From positions 1 to 64,000 of IMG/VR virus record IMGVR_UViG_3300044712_001401: DNA of 64,000 bases. One strand, written 5' to 3'. Numbering within the stretch: position 1 is the stretch's first letter; the number at the start of each line of letters is the position of its first letter. The DNA is from a virus. A program made the position numbers and the translations under genes. This document shows, one piece after another, positions 32,946 through 38,404 of this stretch. A model generated the notes under the pieces. That model made no database searches and was not told the DNA's origin. It was given only the letters and a program-made list of their open reading frames with translations.

Positions 32946-35153
32946 ATGTCGGATTTTTTAGCGGACGCGCGACGCTCCGCGCGTTCGCGGGTGGAGATGG
33001 CTCGGCGGTCGTTTGGGCAGTCGCTGCGCAAGGCAACGAGCGGTGGCGCAGTTGTCGGCGACGCGTCCGAGCTTGGGCTCATGTCGTCGCTCGGAACGTC
33101 TGACGGATTCTCGTTTGGCGACAAAGGAGCGAGTCAAGCTCGACTCGCTCTGGCCGAGTTTCGGTCGTGGGTCTATGTCTGCGTAAACGCGATCGCGGGG
33201 CGTCTGTCGTCGCAACCGATGGTCGCCTGCCTTGTGTCGGACGACCAAAAGTCAAAGACGGGCAAGCGTAACTCGCGGCTTGACGTCACGCGGAAAAGAA
33301 AAGTTCCGGAATCGATTCGCGCGAAACTCCCAACCGCTTTCAGCATGGAGATTCTCACGAGCGGCGATATCGTCCGGACGTTAGAGCAACCCAACCCGGT
33401 GCAATCGCGCTCGCAGTTCTTGTACTTTTCGGCGGCGTCGCTGCTTTTGTGCGGAGAGTGTTATTGGGTCGCTGGGCTCGCAACTCCAGACGAAAGCGAC
33501 CAGACGAGCGACGATGGGCCGCGCGTGGAATATTGGGCGATTCCGCGAACGTGGATCAAGCCATTGCATGAGGGGCGGTTATTTTCGGGCTACGAGTTGC
33601 GGACGAGCCCCAACGCCGAACCGATTTTGTTATCGTCTTCGCAGGTCGCTCGGACGTACTTTCCTGATCCGTCGGACATCCGCGCGTGTCGTTCTCCGCT
33701 CCAAGCCGTCGCAACGTCGGTGCGTGTTGACGACCGGCTCCAAGCGAGCCAAGAGCAAGCGTTCGACCGTGGGCTCGATCCGAACCTAATCGTCACGGTG
33801 GGGCGGCTACGCGACGAGGACGGCAAGTTAGGTGATCGTCGTCCTCGTCTGACGGGGAGCCAGCGGCGACAATTGATTCGGGCCGTGCAGGAGGTCTGGG
33901 ACTCGACGGTCAACGAGGGCTACCCTGCCATCGTCGACGGTTTCATTGAGTCGGTACACAAGCTATCCAACACGCCATCCGAAATGGATTGGACCGAGTC
34001 GGGCGACGTAATCAAGCGGCGTATCTTTCAAGCGTTTCGCGTGAACCCCATCATCGTCGGGGAGATTGTCGGAGCGAATCGCGCCCAAGTCGTCGAGGCG
34101 GAGAAGCATTTTTGCGCGAACGCTGTCAACCCCATCGCGTCGGCTCTCTCGGACTCTGCGGATCGGCTCTCGCGTTCGTTTTTCGAGGGCGGCTCGTCGA
34201 CGCGTCTAACCGTATACGTCGAGCAGGCCGAGCCCACGGACCCGGATCTCGATACGCGGCGATGGGGCGACGCGCGTAAGCTGGGCGACGTAACGCGAGA
34301 CGAGTATAGAGCCGAGCTATTGGGACTGCCACCACTTGAGGACGACAACGCCACGCGCAACACCCTACTATCGACCGTCGGCGGAATTACGGGCACGGTC
34401 CAGGTTGTCACGGCGGTCGGGCAAGGCATGGTGCGCCCCGAACAAGCCCAAGCGATGTTGGAGCTATTTCTCGAAATTCCTCCGGACGTCGCGGGCCGAA
34501 TTGCCGGCGTTGGGCAGGCTCCGATCCCGGCTCTGACGCCACCGAATCCGCCGGGCGGACCAGTGCCATCGCCAGCACCGCCAAAGCCGGCCGATCCGGT
34601 GGACGACAACGAGGAGCCACCGCTTGCCGAGGACGCTCCGCCGCAGCCGGACGAGTCGCAGGAGGCGTCGTATGTGGCTCGCTATGACGTCGTACCGCTC
34701 GCGCCGACCCAATCCATGCAAGACGAAGCGGCCGTCGGTCTGGGCTTGCTAGGCGAACGCACGGTGCAAGTTTCGTCGGGGCTGCTGTCGGTGGCTCGTC
34801 GTATTGCCGGCGGAGAGCGATTGCGGGCGATCGAGTGGCGATGGCTTCGCAGCTATCTCGCACGGTGCGGAAACGCTGGGCGCAACGAGCCGGGATGGAA
34901 TCGCGACGAGGCATCTTGGCCGTCGTTGCCGGCGTTGCTCTGGACGTGTTGCGGCGGTGACGCGGCGTTCGTGCGGTCCTCGTACGTGTGCGCGTGTCTC
35001 GATACGGCCGACCGTCGCGAGGCAAAGCGGGAAAAGTTTGCCGGGGCGACGACGACGATTACGCGAGCCGACGTCAAGGCGCTCAATGCCTCGCAGCTCA
35101 ACGCGTTGATTGGAGGGGCTGCCGACCAAATCGGTGGCACGTTTCAAGGCTAG
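32946..35153 (+). CDS. Portal protein (HK97/lambda-like) with Pro-rich linker and extra C-terminal domain
   Basis: WVYVCVNAIA, L.QPNP.QS...F, L.GECYW, SPLQA, I..AF.V.P...G, TRDEYR..LLGLPP. Confidence 0.88.
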   Translation: MSDFLADARRSARSRVEMARRSFGQSLRKATSGGAVVGDASELGLMSSLGTSDGFSFGDKGASQARLALAEFRSWVYVCVNAIAGRLSSQPMVACLVSDDQKSKTGKRNSRLDVTRKRKVPESIRAKLPTAFSMEILTSGDIVRTLEQPNPVQSRSQFLYFSAASLLLCGECYWVAGLATPDESDQTSDDGPRVEYWAIPRTWIKPLHEGRLFSGYELRTSPNAEPILLSSSQVARTYFPDPSDIRACRSPLQAVATSVRVDDRLQASQEQAFDRGLDPNLIVTVGRLRDEDGKLGDRRPRLTGSQRRQLIRAVQEVWDSTVNEGYPAIVDGFIESVHKLSNTPSEMDWTESGDVIKRRIFQAFRVNPIIVGEIVGANRAQVVEAEKHFCANAVNPIASALSDSADRLSRSFFEGGSSTRLTVYVEQAEPTDPDLDTRRWGDARKLGDVTRDEYRAELLGLPPLEDDNATRNTLLSTVGGITGTVQVVTAVGQGMVRPEQAQAMLELFLEIPPDVAGRIAGVGQAPIPALTPPNPPGGPVPSPAPPKPADPVDDNEEPPLAEDAPPQPDESQEASYVARYDVVPLAPTQSMQDEAAVGLGLLGERTVQVSSGLLSVARRIAGGERLRAIEWRWLRSYLARCGNAGRNEPGWNRDEASWPSLPALLWTCCGGDAAFVRSSYVCACLDTADRREAKREKFAGATTTITRADVKALNASQLNALIGGAADQIGGTFQG

Positions 35154-38100
35154 CGTCGAGCAGTTTGTCGCGAGATTCATTGCGGCGAACCCGACATTGA
35201 CGAAGGGGAGCGGAGCAACTCAAGCGTCTCGGCTCGTAAAGATGTTCGACGCGAAATCGGCTCTGGCCGATCTGTCGCGGCGGTGCATTAATCCGCTCGC
35301 GTCAGCGTTCGCGACTGGGGCAATCGTCGAGCGTCGGCTACACCGCGCCGTTTGCGTTGATCACAAATCCGGCGTCAAGACGACGGCCGAGGATATCGCG
35401 AGACGGCTACAAATCGACTTGCCACCGGGGATTTCGATTGGGCAAATGCCGGCGTGGCTCCGCGCTCGCGCGGCCGAGATTATCCACCGGACGTTCCAGG
35501 AGCCCTATTGGCAGCGCATACCCGAGACGACTCGCGACGATATCGAAGTGACGCTCCGCAACTCGATCGACGAGGGGCTCTCCGTCCGGGAAGTCTCGCG
35601 TCAAATCATGGAGCGACACGGGGACCAATACGACCGATGGCGATCCGTCAACGTCGCTCGCACCGAGATGACGAACGCGCTCAACGCCGGGCACGTCGAG
35701 GGGATTCGCCAGACGGCGCAAGAAACCGGCCTGCGAATTGGCAAGGAGTGGGTGAGCGTGCTCGGCACCACGACTCGCGAGACGCACGCGGACGCGGACG
35801 GGCAGCAGACACCGGACGCGGAGGGAAATTTTACATTGGCCGGCTACGAAGTTCCGTGGCCGGGGCACTGGTCGCTGCCAGCGTCCGAGCGTTGCCATTG
35901 TTTCCCGGCGGGTACTCTGGTGCGTTCTATCGGCTCAACGCAAGCCGTGATGCGGGCATGGTATGAAGGCGTTGTCTATGAAATTACGACGGTTGGCGGG
36001 CGGAGACTTTCCGTCACCGAGAACCACCCCGTACTTACCGCGAGTGGATGGGTCGCGGCTGGAAAGCTCAAGATAGGCGACCAGTTGTTCGCCACAACGA
36101 GACAAGTCGAGTCGTCCGTGGCGAATGAACAAATACAAGACGAACCAACCAGAATTGAGCAAATGTTCGAGGCGGCGCGAGAGCGATCCGTTTTTGGTTC
36201 CGGGGCGTCCGGCTACAAACTCCGCCGGTGCAGTCGTCGAGACTTCTACGGCGATGGGGAATTCTCGCAGGGCTATGTCGAGATTGTATTGATCGACAGC
36301 GACCTGCGTGCGGATCGTGAATCCGCAGCCGACAAGGTACGACGAGACCAAGACTTCTCGCGAGTAAACATTTACCTGCCGGAGTTGCTTCGTCATGGCG
36401 CGGCGGCGTCTTCGTTCAATCGGCTCAGTGGACAAGCGGCGAGCGTTCCAAGCGGCAGAAAGGACGTCGTTAGCCAAAGCGGATCGGTCGTCGTCGTCGA
36501 GCCCCGACCAGCGGCTACGTTGCCCATCGGAGTACGAGCGGATTTTGCGGCCGTTGGCTCGCAATCTTTCGGCGAGCCACGGACGACTCACCCCGTACCG
36601 TTCGGCGACGCGCTTAAGGTTCTCGCCTGCGTCGTAGTCGCGGATCATGTCGCTCAAATCGTCGCGGTCAAGTCGGCGTGTCACGTGTACGATCTCCAAA
36701 CTGAAAGCGGCCTGATTGAGGCGGGCACTGGCAATGGTGGTGTAATCGTATCAAATTGTCAATGTAGCGTTATATCGTCCGTCGTCATGGACGAAATCTC
36801 CGACGAGCCAAAGCCGGAACCGACACCGGAACCGGAGCCGACGCCACCGCCGGCAGTCGAGCCACCGCCGGCGCAAGAACCGCAGCCAATCCCGGCGTGG
36901 GAGCCTGGGACGATTCCGACGTCGGACCAACTCGGTGCGATGAGCTACGAGGAACTGCGGCGAGTGCCTGTCGAACACGTCGTTAACTTGCATCCCGAAT
37001 TGAACGACGTACATCAGCGGGTATTGAAAGCGGCGGACAAGTTCGACCGGCTTGGCGGCGCACCGCCGAAGGCGAAGCTCGACAAAGCGGCCGAGGATTA
37101 CAACAAGGCACACAAGAAGGTTTACGAGCTTGAAGCGAAATGGATGCAAGCCAACGAGCGAGGCGACAAGGAAAAGGCGAAGGCGTTGATGGAAAAAATC
37201 GACGCGGCTGCGGCGAAGTTTGAGGCGGCGAAGACCAAGTACGCGGGGATGCTCGACAAGCGATTTAAGGCGAACGAGTTCAAGACACCGGAAGAGGCTC
37301 GGCGGTCTTTCCTGGCATCCGTGGGCGTTCCGAAAGGCGAGCGATTGAAAATCTACGGAGTTAAGGCTCCGATGCATCCGCCAGAATACCGCGTCAACTT
37401 GGAGGATGGCGGGTCCGTCGTCGTCCAGTTTCAGGATCAAAATATGCTGCGGACCAGCACCGGAGATTGGGACCGCAATTCGCACGTTGGCCGACGAATT
37501 GAGGAGGCGAAAAACTTTGTCGAACCACTGATTGCGAAGCGTGGTGTCTTTGCGGAAAGCGAGCGAATTGCCAACGAAGTGGCGAACGTGCGGTTTCATC
37601 TTGGGGAGGAAGGCGTTCGCGCGCATGCGAAAGCTAAAGGGCACGACGTCACGAAATCAGATGCTCCAAACTATCGCGGTGTTTTTATCTCGCCGTCGGA
37701 CGACGTGGGGACTGTGGTGCATGAGCTAGGCCACGTCATCGAAGGGGCTCGCGGCGACGGCATGACCAAACGTGCCGAGGAGTTTCGGCAATATCGCACG
37801 GCGAAGACGCCAGACGTCCCGATGCGAAAGTACAGTCCGTTCTATTCCGAGTGGGAAATTGGCAACGAAGATCGATTTCATGGGGTCTTCGATAGCGACG
37901 CCAAGCCGGGGAAGGTATATGATGAAAAAGACAACGTTGCGAGGCGTGCTGCGTACACCGGCAAAGGCTATGGAATGTATGGCACGGAGCTAACGTCGAT
38001 GGGGCTCGAAGCGATGTATCGCGACCCGTATCGGCTCGCGAAAAACGACCCGGAGTTGTTCAAGTTCGTGATTGGGGTGTTGCGTGGAATCGTCGAGTAG
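35110..38100 (+). CDS. MuF/SPP1 gp7-type head morphogenesis protein with an intein and a C-terminal HExxH domain
   Basis: VARTE...A.NAG, KEW....TRETH..ADGQ, ERCH|intein|CQC; Pro-rich linker; VVHELGHVIE. Start codon uncertain. Confidence 0.88.
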   Translation: MEGLPTKSVARFKASVEQFVARFIAANPTLTKGSGATQASRLVKMFDAKSALADLSRRCINPLASAFATGAIVERRLHRAVCVDHKSGVKTTAEDIARRLQIDLPPGISIGQMPAWLRARAAEIIHRTFQEPYWQRIPETTRDDIEVTLRNSIDEGLSVREVSRQIMERHGDQYDRWRSVNVARTEMTNALNAGHVEGIRQTAQETGLRIGKEWVSVLGTTTRETHADADGQQTPDAEGNFTLAGYEVPWPGHWSLPASERCHCFPAGTLVRSIGSTQAVMRAWYEGVVYEITTVGGRRLSVTENHPVLTASGWVAAGKLKIGDQLFATTRQVESSVANEQIQDEPTRIEQMFEAARERSVFGSGASGYKLRRCSRRDFYGDGEFSQGYVEIVLIDSDLRADRESAADKVRRDQDFSRVNIYLPELLRHGAAASSFNRLSGQAASVPSGRKDVVSQSGSVVVVEPRPAATLPIGVRADFAAVGSQSFGEPRTTHPVPFGDALKVLACVVVADHVAQIVAVKSACHVYDLQTESGLIEAGTGNGGVIVSNCQCSVISSVVMDEISDEPKPEPTPEPEPTPPPAVEPPPAQEPQPIPAWEPGTIPTSDQLGAMSYEELRRVPVEHVVNLHPELNDVHQRVLKAADKFDRLGGAPPKAKLDKAAEDYNKAHKKVYELEAKWMQANERGDKEKAKALMEKIDAAAAKFEAAKTKYAGMLDKRFKANEFKTPEEARRSFLASVGVPKGERLKIYGVKAPMHPPEYRVNLEDGGSVVVQFQDQNMLRTSTGDWDRNSHVGRRIEEAKNFVEPLIAKRGVFAESERIANEVANVRFHLGEEGVRAHAKAKGHDVTKSDAPNYRGVFISPSDDVGTVVHELGHVIEGARGDGMTKRAEEFRQYRTAKTPDVPMRKYSPFYSEWEIGNEDRFHGVFDSDAKPGKVYDEKDNVARRAAYTGKGYGMYGTELTSMGLEAMYRDPYRLAKNDPELFKFVIGVLRGIVE
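35899..36756 (+). mobile_element. Intein (286 aa) inserted in the Cys motif of MuF
   Basis: Block A CFPAGTLV, block B LSVTENHPVLT..GW..AG.L..GD, block F VYDLQT, block G VIVSN followed by Cys(+1). Confidence 0.92.
35935..36684 (-). CDS. HTH + Vsr/DUF559-like PD-(D/E)XK nuclease encoded antisense inside the intein
   Basis: GGAG (36697-36694) 9 nt before GTG 36684; YDAGENLKRVAERYGVSRPWLAERLRANG (HTH); E..V...L...G....QVAVDQYNLDIAL...IAVEV...R...L...GWFVL. Confidence 0.72.
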   Translation of the reverse strand: MTRRLDRDDLSDMIRDYDAGENLKRVAERYGVSRPWLAERLRANGRKIRSYSDGQRSRWSGLDDDDRSALANDVLSAAWNARRLSTEPIERRRRRAMTKQLRQVNVYSREVLVSSYLVGCGFTIRTQVAVDQYNLDIALREFPIAVEVSTTAPAEFVAGRPGTKNGSLSRRLEHLLNSGWFVLYLFIRHGRLDLSRCGEQLVAYLELSSRDPSTRGKYGVVLGDGKSPPANRRNFIDNAFIPCPHHGLR

Positions 38101-38404
38101 AATTGAACCAAAGCTCACAAAGCGGATTCCGGGCGGACGTCTGGTTGCGACGCTTGATAAGTCGCTCAAGTTCGTGGTCGCGTTTGAGCCGAGCGACGAA
38201 ACGCGATTCGACGACCAAATTGAAGCCATTATTCGAGTCTCGCAGCGGATGCTCAACTCCATCGCGGACATTGCCGCGCGGTCGTTCCGGTTTGGGCCAA
38301 GCGACGGAAATAAGTTTGATGGGATCTTGCACGCGGCGGCGTCGGCGGGCGAGTGGACAATTGAGCGGCCGGAGCCAATCGACGTGGGGGAGGTTGTGTG
38401 GTAG
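38072..38404 (+). CDS. Small hypothetical protein directly after MuF
   Basis: Overlaps the MuF stop codon; start uncertain. Confidence 0.5.
   Translation: MGCCVESSSRIEPKLTKRIPGGRLVATLDKSLKFVVAFEPSDETRFDDQIEAIIRVSQRMLNSIADIAARSFRFGPSDGNKFDGILHAAASAGEWTIERPEPIDVGEVVW

What the first reader, a model, noticed from the sequence alone, without database searches (positions are those of the whole stretch)
36684..36762. Expression signals for the antisense gene are written into intein block F and the first C-extein codons
Seen: the D-L-Q codons of block F (GAT CTC CAA) read GGAG on the minus strand, 9 nt before GTG 36684. The first two C-extein codons (TGT CAA, 36757-36762) read as a perfect TTGACA, and 17 bp further on is CACCAT, which keeps the -11A and -7T of a -10 box. 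The stretch is locally AT-rich in a GC-rich genome. Inference: a hybrid promoter spanning the splice junction would form only after insertion at this site.
Basis: partly seen in the sequence, partly recalled or inferred. Interest (0 to 1): 0.72.

Follow-up and report, generated by a model that had tools for sequence, protein, structure and literature searches.

The report
Antisense nuclease gene's start signals in intein
In an uncultured soil phage, a self-splicing protein insert (intein) in a head-assembly gene carries its DNA-cutting "homing" enzyme on the opposite strand, and the conserved end of the intein also serves as that gene's ribosome-binding site, start codon and probably promoter.

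Summary
All four motifs are at the stated coordinates.

The setting is real. A MuF-like head gene (35110-38100, +) carries a 286-aa intein (35899-36756). The intein's interior encodes, codon-for-codon on the minus strand, a 249-aa HTH + Vsr/EDxHD-like homing endonuclease (36684-35935). This architecture was already reported for actinophage minor-capsid inteins in a 2025 preprint, which does not discuss expression signals.

**Translation signals: strongly supported.** In about 100 divergent homologues the start ATG is the complement of the block-F His codon. GGAG lies 8-9 nt upstream. The block-F Leu codon is CTC in 69 of 76 loci.

**Promoter: partly supported.** Across the family, the last intein codons are AT-enriched by synonymous choice and form sigma-70-like promoters. 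The first C-extein codons show no such bias.

In this window, TTGACA-17-CACCAT is the best full-promoter match. Its extein -35 is within chance (p about 0.2), and TGT-CAA varies among relatives. A rival extended -10 (TGATACGAT, 36753-36745) lies wholly inside the intein.

No RNA data exist. The element is a new member of a known kind, and the overprinted control signals have not been described before.

The parts
35110..38100 (+). Host gene: MuF-like head-morphogenesis protein precursor (996 aa) with a C-terminal HELGH domain
   Evidence: Pfam PF04233, residues 144-238. PHROG head-morphogenesis families.
35899..36756 (+). Intein, 286 aa. Starts Cys1 (CFPAGT), has block B (TENHP) and block F (HVYDLQ), and ends VIVSN before Cys+1.
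   Evidence: Translation. AF2 model with HINT fold, VIA Z 13, 107 aa aligned at 1.4 A to the Mtu RecA mini-intein. Intein-less alleles L092 and L093, plus a metagenome contig lacking exactly 858 nt.
35935..36684 (-). Antisense homing-endonuclease gene: 249 aa plus stop, with an N-terminal HTH and a Vsr/EDxHD-like PD-(D/E)xK nuclease. Its codons are in exact register with the intein codons.
   Evidence: Purifying selection acts on this frame. 44 of 52 homologues hit Pfam PF18741. AF2 pLDDT 91. Top Foldseek hit is 3r3p, I-Bth0305I.
36682..36684 (-). GTG start codon, the complement of the block-F His codon CAC
   Evidence: Aligns with the ATG (complement of CAT) of homologues: 51 of 54 and 41 of 45 loci. 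The N-terminus MTRRL is shared.
36694..36697 (-). Shine-Dalgarno GGAG, the complement of the block-F Leu codon CTC plus the first base of Gln CAA. It lies 9 nt before GTG.
   Evidence: Leu is CTC in 36 of 41 loci (expected 8.9, z=11) and in 33 of 35 independent loci.
36757..36762 (-).
   Evidence: Sequence. PWM rank 6 on the minus strand. The codon choice is within chance, p=0.22, and is not conserved.
36734..36739 (-). Candidate -10 CACCAT of P1, in block-G Gly-Gly-Asn codons GGT GGT AAT. Predicted transcription start near 36727.
   Evidence: Better than 96-99% of synonymous recodings. It is a weak hexamer at 0.9 bit.
36745..36753 (-). Rival candidate P2: extended -10 TGATACGAT, wholly inside intein block G. 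Predicted transcription start near 36738.
   Evidence: Only 7 TGnTAnnnT sites occur on the minus strand of the window. Synonymous null p=0.037. It lies within 3 nt of the position where 16 homologues have TGnTATAAT-like boxes.
36734..36790 (.). AT-rich patch (GC 0.42) spanning block G and the first C-extein codons
   Evidence: Lowest 0.3% of 57-nt windows. Only the intein side is AT-enriched by codon choice: p=0.0004-0.0016 against 0.2 for the extein side.

Best explanation
Bases 36684-36762 are the 5' control region of a homing-endonuclease gene. That gene is encoded on the minus strand, codon-for-codon opposite the interior of a MuF-gene intein.

**Shown by comparison**
- The intein's block F (sense H-V-Y-D-L-Q) is also the endonuclease's ribosome-binding site and start codon.
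- The Leu codon CTC plus the following C give GGAG.
- The His codon gives GTG here and ATG in relatives.

**Inferred**
- Host sigma-70-type RNA polymerase starts transcription in the AT-rich block-G patch 40-55 nt upstream. This gives a short leader with no special structure.
- Across the family the promoter is carried by the intein itself: either a -10 alone (TGnTATAAT type) or a -35 plus -10 within the last about 35 intein bases.
- In this window two candidates overlap. P1 is the extein-borne TTGACA with a weak CACCAT. P2 is the internal extended -10 TGATACGAT. Which one fires is open.
- The 249-aa product (HTH + Vsr/EDxHD-like nuclease) would cut intein-less MuF alleles at the ...H|CQC site in mixed infections and so drive homing of the intein.
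For: **The antisense gene is real**
- In 14 clusters of close relatives, variable sites by sense codon position are 187/49/118 in the overlap. In the exteins they are 365/279/867 and 120/97/190. The wobble position of the antisense frame therefore varies most.
- The opposite in-register frame is open in 80 of 80 and 70 of 70 loci at GC 37-71%.
- Chance openness of the antisense frame is 10^-1.6 here and 10^-8 to 10^-16 in low-GC loci.
- 44 of 52 homologues hit Pfam PF18741 and 16 hit DUF559.
- The PDB profile search finds 3hrl and 3r3p.
- AF2 gives pLDDT 91.2 and pTM 0.75. The best Foldseek match is I-Bth0305I, followed by Vsr.

**Start and Shine-Dalgarno**
- The start lies 60 nt inside the splice junction in most loci.
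- Leu CTC occurs in 36 of 41 loci (z=11) and His CAT in 51 of 54 (z=8.2).
- This replicated in metagenome loci: CTC in 33 of 35 and ATG in 41 of 45.

**Promoter**
- In 32 of 54 loci the real sequence beats the synonymous null at p<0.05. Fisher combined p is 1.5e-31, with perfect TTGACA-17/18-TATAAT in L049, L042 and L055.
- The last 12 intein codons are AT-enriched by codon choice: mean z -1.95, p=3e-12.
- The phage's own repeated promoters are TTGCAT-16-TAGTAT, so a sigma-70-type polymerase is in play.
Against: - There is no transcript or protein evidence.
- No close relative (above 43% identity) of this window's endonuclease was found, so window-specific promoter bases cannot be tested by conservation.
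- Both promoter candidates are imperfect. P1 has a 3-of-6 -10 box. P2 has a 4-of-6 -10 box and no -35.
- The loci are phylogenetically related, so the combined p-values overstate independence.
- The choice of the first ATG as start makes the His-CAT count partly circular.
- The window's protein itself does not reach Pfam thresholds for the nuclease family. It also lacks the GGxWH motif found after the AVE[IV] motif in many relatives. Its whole subclade lacks that motif too.
Confidence: 0.75

Rival explanations
1. P1. The -35 TTGACA is made by the first two C-extein codons and the -10 CACCAT lies in block G. Transcription starts near 36727. The promoter is complete only when the intein sits at this site.
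For: - It is the best full-promoter PWM score in the region and 6th among all minus-strand positions of the window. That is above the phage's own repeated promoters on the same scale.
- p=0.038 against synonymous recodings.
- The -10 term alone gives p=0.013-0.04.
- The closest relative, L012, also has an extein TTGACA followed by 18 nt and TATTTT (p=0.014).
- 11 of 13 Cys-Gln relatives keep TTG (Gln codon CAA).
Against: - The -10 box has only 3 of 6 matches and lacks the -12 T.
- TGT CAA is expected about 20% of the time from codon usage.
- Relatives vary: 6 have TGT CAA, 5 TGC CAA and 2 TGC CAG.
- Extein codons show no family-wide bias.
- The intein-less allele L092 already reads TTGGCA.
Confidence: 0.35
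2. P2, an extended -10 promoter (TGATACGAT, 36753-36745) lying wholly inside intein block G. It needs no -35, transcription starts near 36738, and the mobile element carries its complete promoter.
For: - It lies within 3 nt of the position where 16 of 54 homologues have TGnTATAAT or TACAAT-type boxes. These include subclade relatives L100 and L106.
- Only 7 TGnTAnnnT sites occur on the whole minus strand, and the synonymous null gives p=0.037.
- The family-wide AT bias is confined to the intein side.
Against: - The hexamer TACGAT has 4 of 6 matches, with C and G at its centre.
- There is no -35.
- The additive PWM score is lower than for P1.
- The position is shifted by one codon relative to type-A homologues.
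Confidence: 0.35
3. There is no dedicated promoter in this stretch. The endonuclease is made from a longer antisense RNA started further upstream on the minus strand, or it is silent in this phage.
For: A promoter-like site, TTGAGC-17-AATAAT, with its -10 at 38233 on the minus strand scores 10.7. No RNA data exist to exclude this.
Against: - The ORF is intact and all family-invariant residues are kept.
- The block-G codons are strongly AT-biased in this window: p=0.0004-0.0016.
- The Shine-Dalgarno sequence and start codon are preserved.
- Nearly all genes of the window are on the plus strand.
Confidence: 0.12
4. The motifs are by-products of sense-strand constraints such as intein residues, codon bias or the homing-site sequence. 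They have no role in antisense expression.
For: - Blocks F and G are conserved amino-acid motifs.
- Part of the antisense 'homology' simply mirrors sense conservation. tblastn matches run past the antisense stop in 21 loci.
Against: - The synonymous choices themselves are biased: CTC z=11, and intein-side AT enrichment p=3e-12, while the neighbouring extein codons show none.
- No sense-strand reason for CTC is known in hosts ranging from 37 to 71% GC.
Confidence: 0.04

Closest known systems
Anti-sense VSR-like homing endonucleases inside full inteins of actinobacteriophage minor capsid (MuF) proteins (Gosselin, Arsenault and Gogarten, bioRxiv 10.1101/2025.01.02.630785)
   Same: - The host protein type and intein site are the same.
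- The endonuclease type and its antisense orientation are the same.
- Gordonia phage homologues (Fosterous, Vivi2, Kewpiedoll, Malisha) and Rhodococcus phage REQ3 were hit directly by tblastn.
   Different: - The preprint does not mention a promoter, ribosome-binding site or start codon.
[quoted passage not shown] Here the ORF starts in block F, stops 36 nt short of the intein's first codon (so it overlaps 12 of the 13 block-A codons) and covers all of block B.
- The family is far wider than actinophages. It includes Salmonella Jerseyvirus, Escherichia, Pseudomonas, Vibrio and Aggregatibacter phages, 432 IMG/VR contigs and 175 metagenome contigs.
I-Bth0305I and the EDxHD (Vsr-like) homing-endonuclease family (Dassa et al. 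2009, PMC2677866; Taylor et al. 2011, PMC3239194)
   Same: - The nuclease fold is Vsr-like PD-(D/E)xK, and 3r3p is the best structural and profile match.
- The endonucleases are phage-borne and associated with inteins or introns.
   Different: - Those enzymes are free-standing between split-intein halves or lie in group I introns, on the sense strand, with their own untranslated leader and hairpin or late-promoter elements.
- Here the gene is overprinted antisense on a contiguous intein, and its signals are built from intein codons.
Anti-sense LAGLIDADG ORFs in inteins (Gorbalenya 1998; Gogarten et al. 2002; as cited in the 2025 preprint)
   Same: The homing endonuclease is encoded on the strand opposite a functional intein.
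   Different: The nuclease family is different. I could not read those papers, so their treatment of expression signals was not checked.

Membership tests
Class 1 intein (HINT domain) | Cys/Ser at position 1, a block B T-x-x-H, and a C-terminal Asn followed by Cys/Ser/Thr | tested here: met
   Cys1 (CFPAGT), TENHP, and VIVSN followed by Cys.
Class 1 intein (HINT domain) | Penultimate His in block G | tested here: not met
   The residue is Ser (VSN). The family shows S, H, K, R, T or A at this position. From general knowledge, non-His penultimate residues occur in active inteins.
Class 1 intein (HINT domain) | HINT fold | tested here: met
   The AF2 model aligns to Mtu RecA, the PI-PkoII intein and the hedgehog autoprocessing domain at Z 13, with 107-110 aa at 1.4-1.7 A.
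Class 1 intein (HINT domain) | Intein-less alleles exist with an intact extein at the same site | tested here: met
   L092 (ERCN|CQC) and L093 (ECIN|CQC). A contig in run X7 lacks exactly 858 nt.
Class 1 intein (HINT domain) | Protein splicing activity | not testable with these tools
   Inferred from intact blocks and from the need for the MuF C-terminal region.
Vsr-like / EDxHD homing endonuclease (PF18741, DUF559, I-Bth0305I) | Sequence match to the family models | tested here: inconclusive
   The window's protein hits only HTH_23 weakly. 44 of 52 aligned homologues hit PF18741 and 16 hit DUF559. The profile search against PDB gives 3hrl at 1.6e-5 and 3r3p at 8.5e-4.
Vsr-like / EDxHD homing endonuclease (PF18741, DUF559, I-Bth0305I) | Vsr-type PD-(D/E)xK fold | tested here: met
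   Foldseek top hits are 3r3p (prob 0.99, TM 0.57-0.60 on the target) and 1vsr (prob 0.84), although the E-values are only 0.009-0.2.
Vsr-like / EDxHD homing endonuclease (PF18741, DUF559, I-Bth0305I) | Catalytic acidic residues retained | tested here: inconclusive
   Family-invariant Y133, N134, D136 and R171 and near-invariant E110 and E147 are present. The GGxWH motif after the AVE[IV] motif is absent in this subclade. The mapping onto the EDxHD motif was not done.
Vsr-like / EDxHD homing endonuclease (PF18741, DUF559, I-Bth0305I) | Site-specific cleavage of the intein-less allele | not testable with these tools
   None.
Bacterial translation-initiation region | Shine-Dalgarno 5-10 nt before an ATG/GTG/TTG, conserved in homologues | tested here: met
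   GGAG, 9 nt, then GTG. Homologues have GGAG(G) 8-9 nt before ATG.
Sigma-70-type promoter | -35 TTGACA-like and -10 TATAAT-like hexamers 16-18 nt apart, or TGn plus a -10 | tested here: inconclusive
   P1 has 6 of 6 and 3 of 6 matches. P2 has TGn plus 4 of 6. The family-level enrichment is strong. No transcription start data exist.

The most novel reading that the evidence does not exclude
In this widespread intein family the two C-terminal splicing blocks carry three layers of information at once: splicing residues, the promoter (block G) and the ribosome-binding site plus start codon (block F) of an antisense homing-endonuclease gene. The nuclease core is also encoded opposite intein sequence that follows the HINT N-terminal core and that AF2 predicts to be folded. 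Intein and endonuclease would then be one inseparable, co-adapted mobile unit, not a free-standing gene that happened to land in an intein. The block-F His would be fixed because its codon is the endonuclease's start.
Probability: 0.55. Interest if true: 0.65.

Novelty: new member of a known kind. Interest (0 to 1): 0.55.

Why it matters
- It explains how an endonuclease hidden on the wrong strand of a late structural operon can be expressed. The intein brings the promoter, ribosome-binding site and start codon inside its own conserved splicing blocks.
- That ties the mobility function to the splicing function base by base. It predicts which synonymous changes would silence homing without touching splicing.
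- The family is large and reaches well-studied cultured phages (Salmonella Jerseyvirus, Pseudomonas, Gordonia), where this can be tested directly.
- It is a clean natural case of long antisense dual coding (about 750 nt) with regulatory overprinting.
- Gene callers miss it. The word-indexed protein search of 5.8 billion predicted proteins returned no hit for this protein.

Tried and rejected
- **Protein homology search:** the search with the antisense protein found nothing. Nested antisense ORFs are not called by gene finders, so this is not evidence of absence. tblastn found 110 phage records.
- **Close relatives:** single-protein scans of viral and metagenome contigs found none.
- **RNA runs:** no RNA holder is listed for this DNA, so expression could not be tested.
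- **Reads laid on the window:** metagenome contigs cover only parts of it. They gave one intein-less joint but no view of its first extein codons.
- **Leader structure:** the fold of the putative leader is no more stable than shuffled sequence (z=+0.94), so no hairpin sequestering the ribosome-binding site is proposed.
- **Built-in promoter scan:** it lists only TTGACC-16-CATGAT inside the ORF, at chance level. I rejected this as the gene's promoter because transcription would start downstream of the conserved start.
- **TTG 36699:** the ORF-list start was rejected because it lies within the Shine-Dalgarno sequence.
- **Extein-side -35 boxes:** I tested whether they are selected in type-A homologues. 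They are not (Fisher p=0.42).
- **Block F against PDB:** a phmmer search, meant to ask whether the His is general to inteins, gave nothing usable.
- **Literature:** searches on 'opposite strand', 'antisense strand' and 'MuF' gave nothing relevant. Gorbalenya 1998 is not in the library.
Full report
**1. What is at the coordinates**

The plus-strand ORF 35110-38100 (996 aa) is a MuF-like head-morphogenesis protein: Pfam PF04233 at residues 144-238, plus PHROG head-morphogenesis families.

It is interrupted by a 286-aa intein at 35899-36756. The intein has Cys1 (CFPAGT), block B (TENHP), block F (HVYDLQ) and a VIVSN end followed by Cys+1 of a CQC motif.

- Sense codons CAC GTG TAC GAT CTC CAA (36682-36699) read, on the minus strand, GGAG (36697-36694), then 9 nt, then GTG (36684).
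- TGT CAA (36757-36762) reads TTGACA.
- After 17 nt comes CACCAT (36739-36734).
- The patch 36734-36790 has GC 0.42 against 0.61 for the window. That is in the lowest 0.3% of 57-nt windows.

**2. The antisense gene is real**

The minus-strand ORF 36684-35935 (249 aa) lies inside the intein, with its codons in exact register with the intein codons.

*Distribution.*
- A search of called proteins found nothing. That is expected, because gene finders do not call nested antisense ORFs.
- tblastn found homologues in 110 phage records. In all ten records inspected, the homologue lies antisense inside a MuF-like gene. These cover Gordonia, Rhodococcus, Salmonella Jerseyvirus, Escherichia, Pseudomonas, Vibrio, Idiomarinaceae and Aggregatibacter phages.
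- An alignment-based scan found 432 IMG/VR contigs and 175 metagenome contigs.
- In 80 of 80 and 70 of 70 fetched loci (GC 37-71%), the in-register opposite frame has no stop.
- The chance that the antisense frame stays open is 10^-1.6 here and 10^-8 to 10^-16 in low-GC loci.

*Selection.* In 14 clusters of close relatives, variable sites by sense codon position are 365/279/867 and 120/97/190 in the exteins. In the overlap they are 187/49/118. There the wobble position of the antisense frame varies most, so that frame is under purifying selection.

*Family and fold.*
- 44 of 52 homologues hit Pfam PF18741 (MTES_1575 restriction-endonuclease-like). 16 hit DUF559, and many hit HTH families.
- A profile search of PDB finds 3hrl and 3r3p.
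- AF2 gives pLDDT 91.2 and pTM 0.75.
- The best Foldseek matches are I-Bth0305I (3r3p), then Vsr.

*The sense product.*
- Its model is a HINT fold: Z 13, 107 aa at 1.4 A to the Mtu RecA mini-intein.
- It has a 95-residue low-confidence linker at residues 139-233.
- Sense residue i lies opposite antisense residue 263-i. So the HTH region faces the disordered linker.
- The nuclease core faces sense residues 63-161. That includes a segment (80-135) that AF2 also predicts as folded. Whether it really is folded is uncertain, because conservation in one frame is mirrored in the other.

**3. Prior knowledge**

A 2025 preprint (bioRxiv 10.1101/2025.01.02.630785) reports anti-sense VSR-like endonucleases inside full inteins of actinophage minor capsid proteins. 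It cites earlier anti-sense LAGLIDADG cases.
- It does not mention a promoter, ribosome-binding site or start codon.

Dassa et al. 2009 described control elements (hairpins and late-promoter boxes) brought in by free-standing Vsr-like endonuclease genes in split inteins.

**4. Translation signals**

In most homologues the antisense start lies exactly 60 nt inside the C-terminal splice junction. It is 72 nt here because of a 4-aa longer F-G loop. The start is the complement of the block-F His codon.

| Codon choice | IMG/VR and phage loci | Expected from codon usage | z |
|---|---|---|---|
| Sense His codon is CAT (gives ATG) | 51 of 54 | 24.5 | 8.2 |
| Block-F Leu codon is CTC (gives GAG) | 36 of 41 | 8.9 | 11 |

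- The window has CAC, which gives GTG.
- The following Gln codon supplies the extra G, so GGAG or GGAGG sits 8-9 nt before the start.
- An independent metagenome set repeats the result: CTC in 33 of 35 loci and ATG in 41 of 45.
- The N-terminus MTRRL is shared with relatives.
- One caveat: picking the first ATG as the start makes the His count partly circular.

This part of the finding is strongly supported.

**5. The promoter**

*Family level.* I scored sigma-70-type promoters on the antisense strand from 60 nt of C-extein to the leader. Each locus was compared with 500 synonymous recodings of the sense frame.
- 32 of 54 loci reach p<0.05 and 14 reach p<0.01. Fisher combined p is 1.5e-31. The loci are related, so this is an upper bound on significance.
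- The -10 boxes cluster at three places: junction+10, junction+25 and junction+29.
- At junction+10 they are mostly of the TGnTATAAT type, built from block-G codons.
- At +25 and +29, the -35 lies at junction+2 to +11, so the whole promoter is inside the intein.
- Examples are TTGACA-17/18-TATAAT in L049, L042 and L055.
- The last 12 intein codons are AT-enriched by codon choice: mean z -1.95, 90% of loci below zero, p=3e-12.
- The first 12 extein codons are not: mean z -0.01, p=0.98.
- Extein-side -35 hexamers in type-A loci are no better than recodings (Fisher p=0.42).

*This window.*
- The phage's own nine repeated promoters read TTGCAT-16-TAGTAT, so a sigma-70-type polymerase applies.
- P1 (TTGACA-17-CACCAT) scores 9.9 bits. 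It is 6th among all minus-strand positions. Two of the sites above it are the known minus-strand promoter repeats.
- P1 gives p=0.038 overall.
- Its -10 term gives p=0.013-0.04.
- Its extein -35 gives p=0.22.
- In this phage TGT is 31% of Cys codons and CAA is 65% of Gln codons.
- Among 13 Cys-Gln relatives that keep the ORF, TGT CAA occurs in 6, TGC CAA in 5 and TGC CAG in 2.
- The intein-less alleles read TGC CAA and TGC CAG.
- P2 (TGATACGAT, 36753-36745) is an extended -10, one of only 7 TGnTAnnnT sites on the minus strand. It gives p=0.037. It lies within one codon of the type-A position.
- The last 8 intein codons (GGT GGT GTA ATC GTA TCA AAT and neighbours) are far more AT-rich than recodings, p=0.0004-0.0016. 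The first 11 extein codons are not, p about 0.2.

So a promoter in this patch is likely. The selected part lies on the intein side, and the choice between P1 and P2 is open.

**6. Further evidence and its limits**

- An intein-less allele exists in a soil metagenome contig. It joins 35888 to 36755 with 8 other letters, a net absence of exactly 858 nt.
- Two IMG/VR relatives, L092 and L093, also lack the intein.
- No RNA run holds this DNA.
- The leader has no unusual structure.
- No relative closer than 43% identity was found.

**7. Verdict**

The translation signals are overprinted on block F, and this holds across the family. The promoter belongs to the block-G patch.
- The idea that the extein codons are a selected half of a hybrid promoter is not supported by comparison. 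It remains possible for this phage.
- The element is a new member of a recently described kind.
- To my search, the overprinting of control signals on splicing blocks has not been described.

Noticed in passing
window 163, 2729, 10985(-), 11565(-), 16193, 22220, 25233, 61751, 62763: Nine copies of a promoter-like unit, TTGC(A/G)T, 16 nt containing TATGCCGA, then TAGTAT, followed by a conserved CGGACGCAC leader. I verified the sequences and used them only as this phage's promoter standard.
   Followed up: partly
window 35888-36755 (metagenome run X7): A soil metagenome contig joins 35888 to 36755 with 8 other letters. A close relative therefore lacks exactly the 858-nt intein (reading ...ERIH|CQC). 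This is a presence/absence polymorphism consistent with a mobile intein.
   Followed up: partly
window 36644-36671 (minus strand): A second promoter-like site, TTGACC-16-CATGAT, lies just inside the endonuclease ORF. It ranks 11th on the minus strand. It would start transcription downstream of the conserved start, so it is probably chance.
   Followed up: no
window 38233 (minus strand): A promoter-like site, TTGAGC-17-AATAAT, scores 10.7. It lies just past the 3' end of the MuF gene (which ends at 38100), antisense to it and 1.5 kb upstream of the endonuclease gene. It could give a long antisense RNA.
   Followed up: no
window 35899-36300 (+) / 35935-36390 (-): The nuclease core of the antisense protein (the YNLD and AVEV strands) is encoded opposite sense motifs DF[HY]GD and VEIV. 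These lie in a part of the intein that AF2 also predicts as folded (pLDDT 88-96). The two motif pairs are mirror images, so which frame drives their conservation is unresolved.
   Followed up: partly
L022-L024, L034, L051-L057, L062, L074, L083, L089, L091: tblastn matches to the antisense protein run 4-14 residues past its stop codon. That tail 'homology' is only the mirror image of intein block B (TPNHP reads as G.Y.VIRG.G).
   Followed up: yes
L002, L006, L007, L008, L009 and other loci: Some family members have two tandem HTH modules before the nuclease. Rhodococcus phage REQ3 (an Ala1 intein) has none and its ORF is shorter, at 181 aa. The DNA-binding part is therefore modular.
   Followed up: no
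window 37900-38100 (+): The MuF C-terminal region carries a zincin-like HELGH motif after a Pro/Glu linker and a coiled coil. Relative L092 has the same tail fused to a portal-like N-terminus in one 1289-aa stop-to-stop open frame.
   Followed up: no
L003 (Salmonella phage PK1) 2459-3268: One GenBank record already annotates the antisense ORF as a hypothetical protein (XRA40086). Escherichia phage Snoke annotates the intein but not the antisense gene.
   Followed up: no
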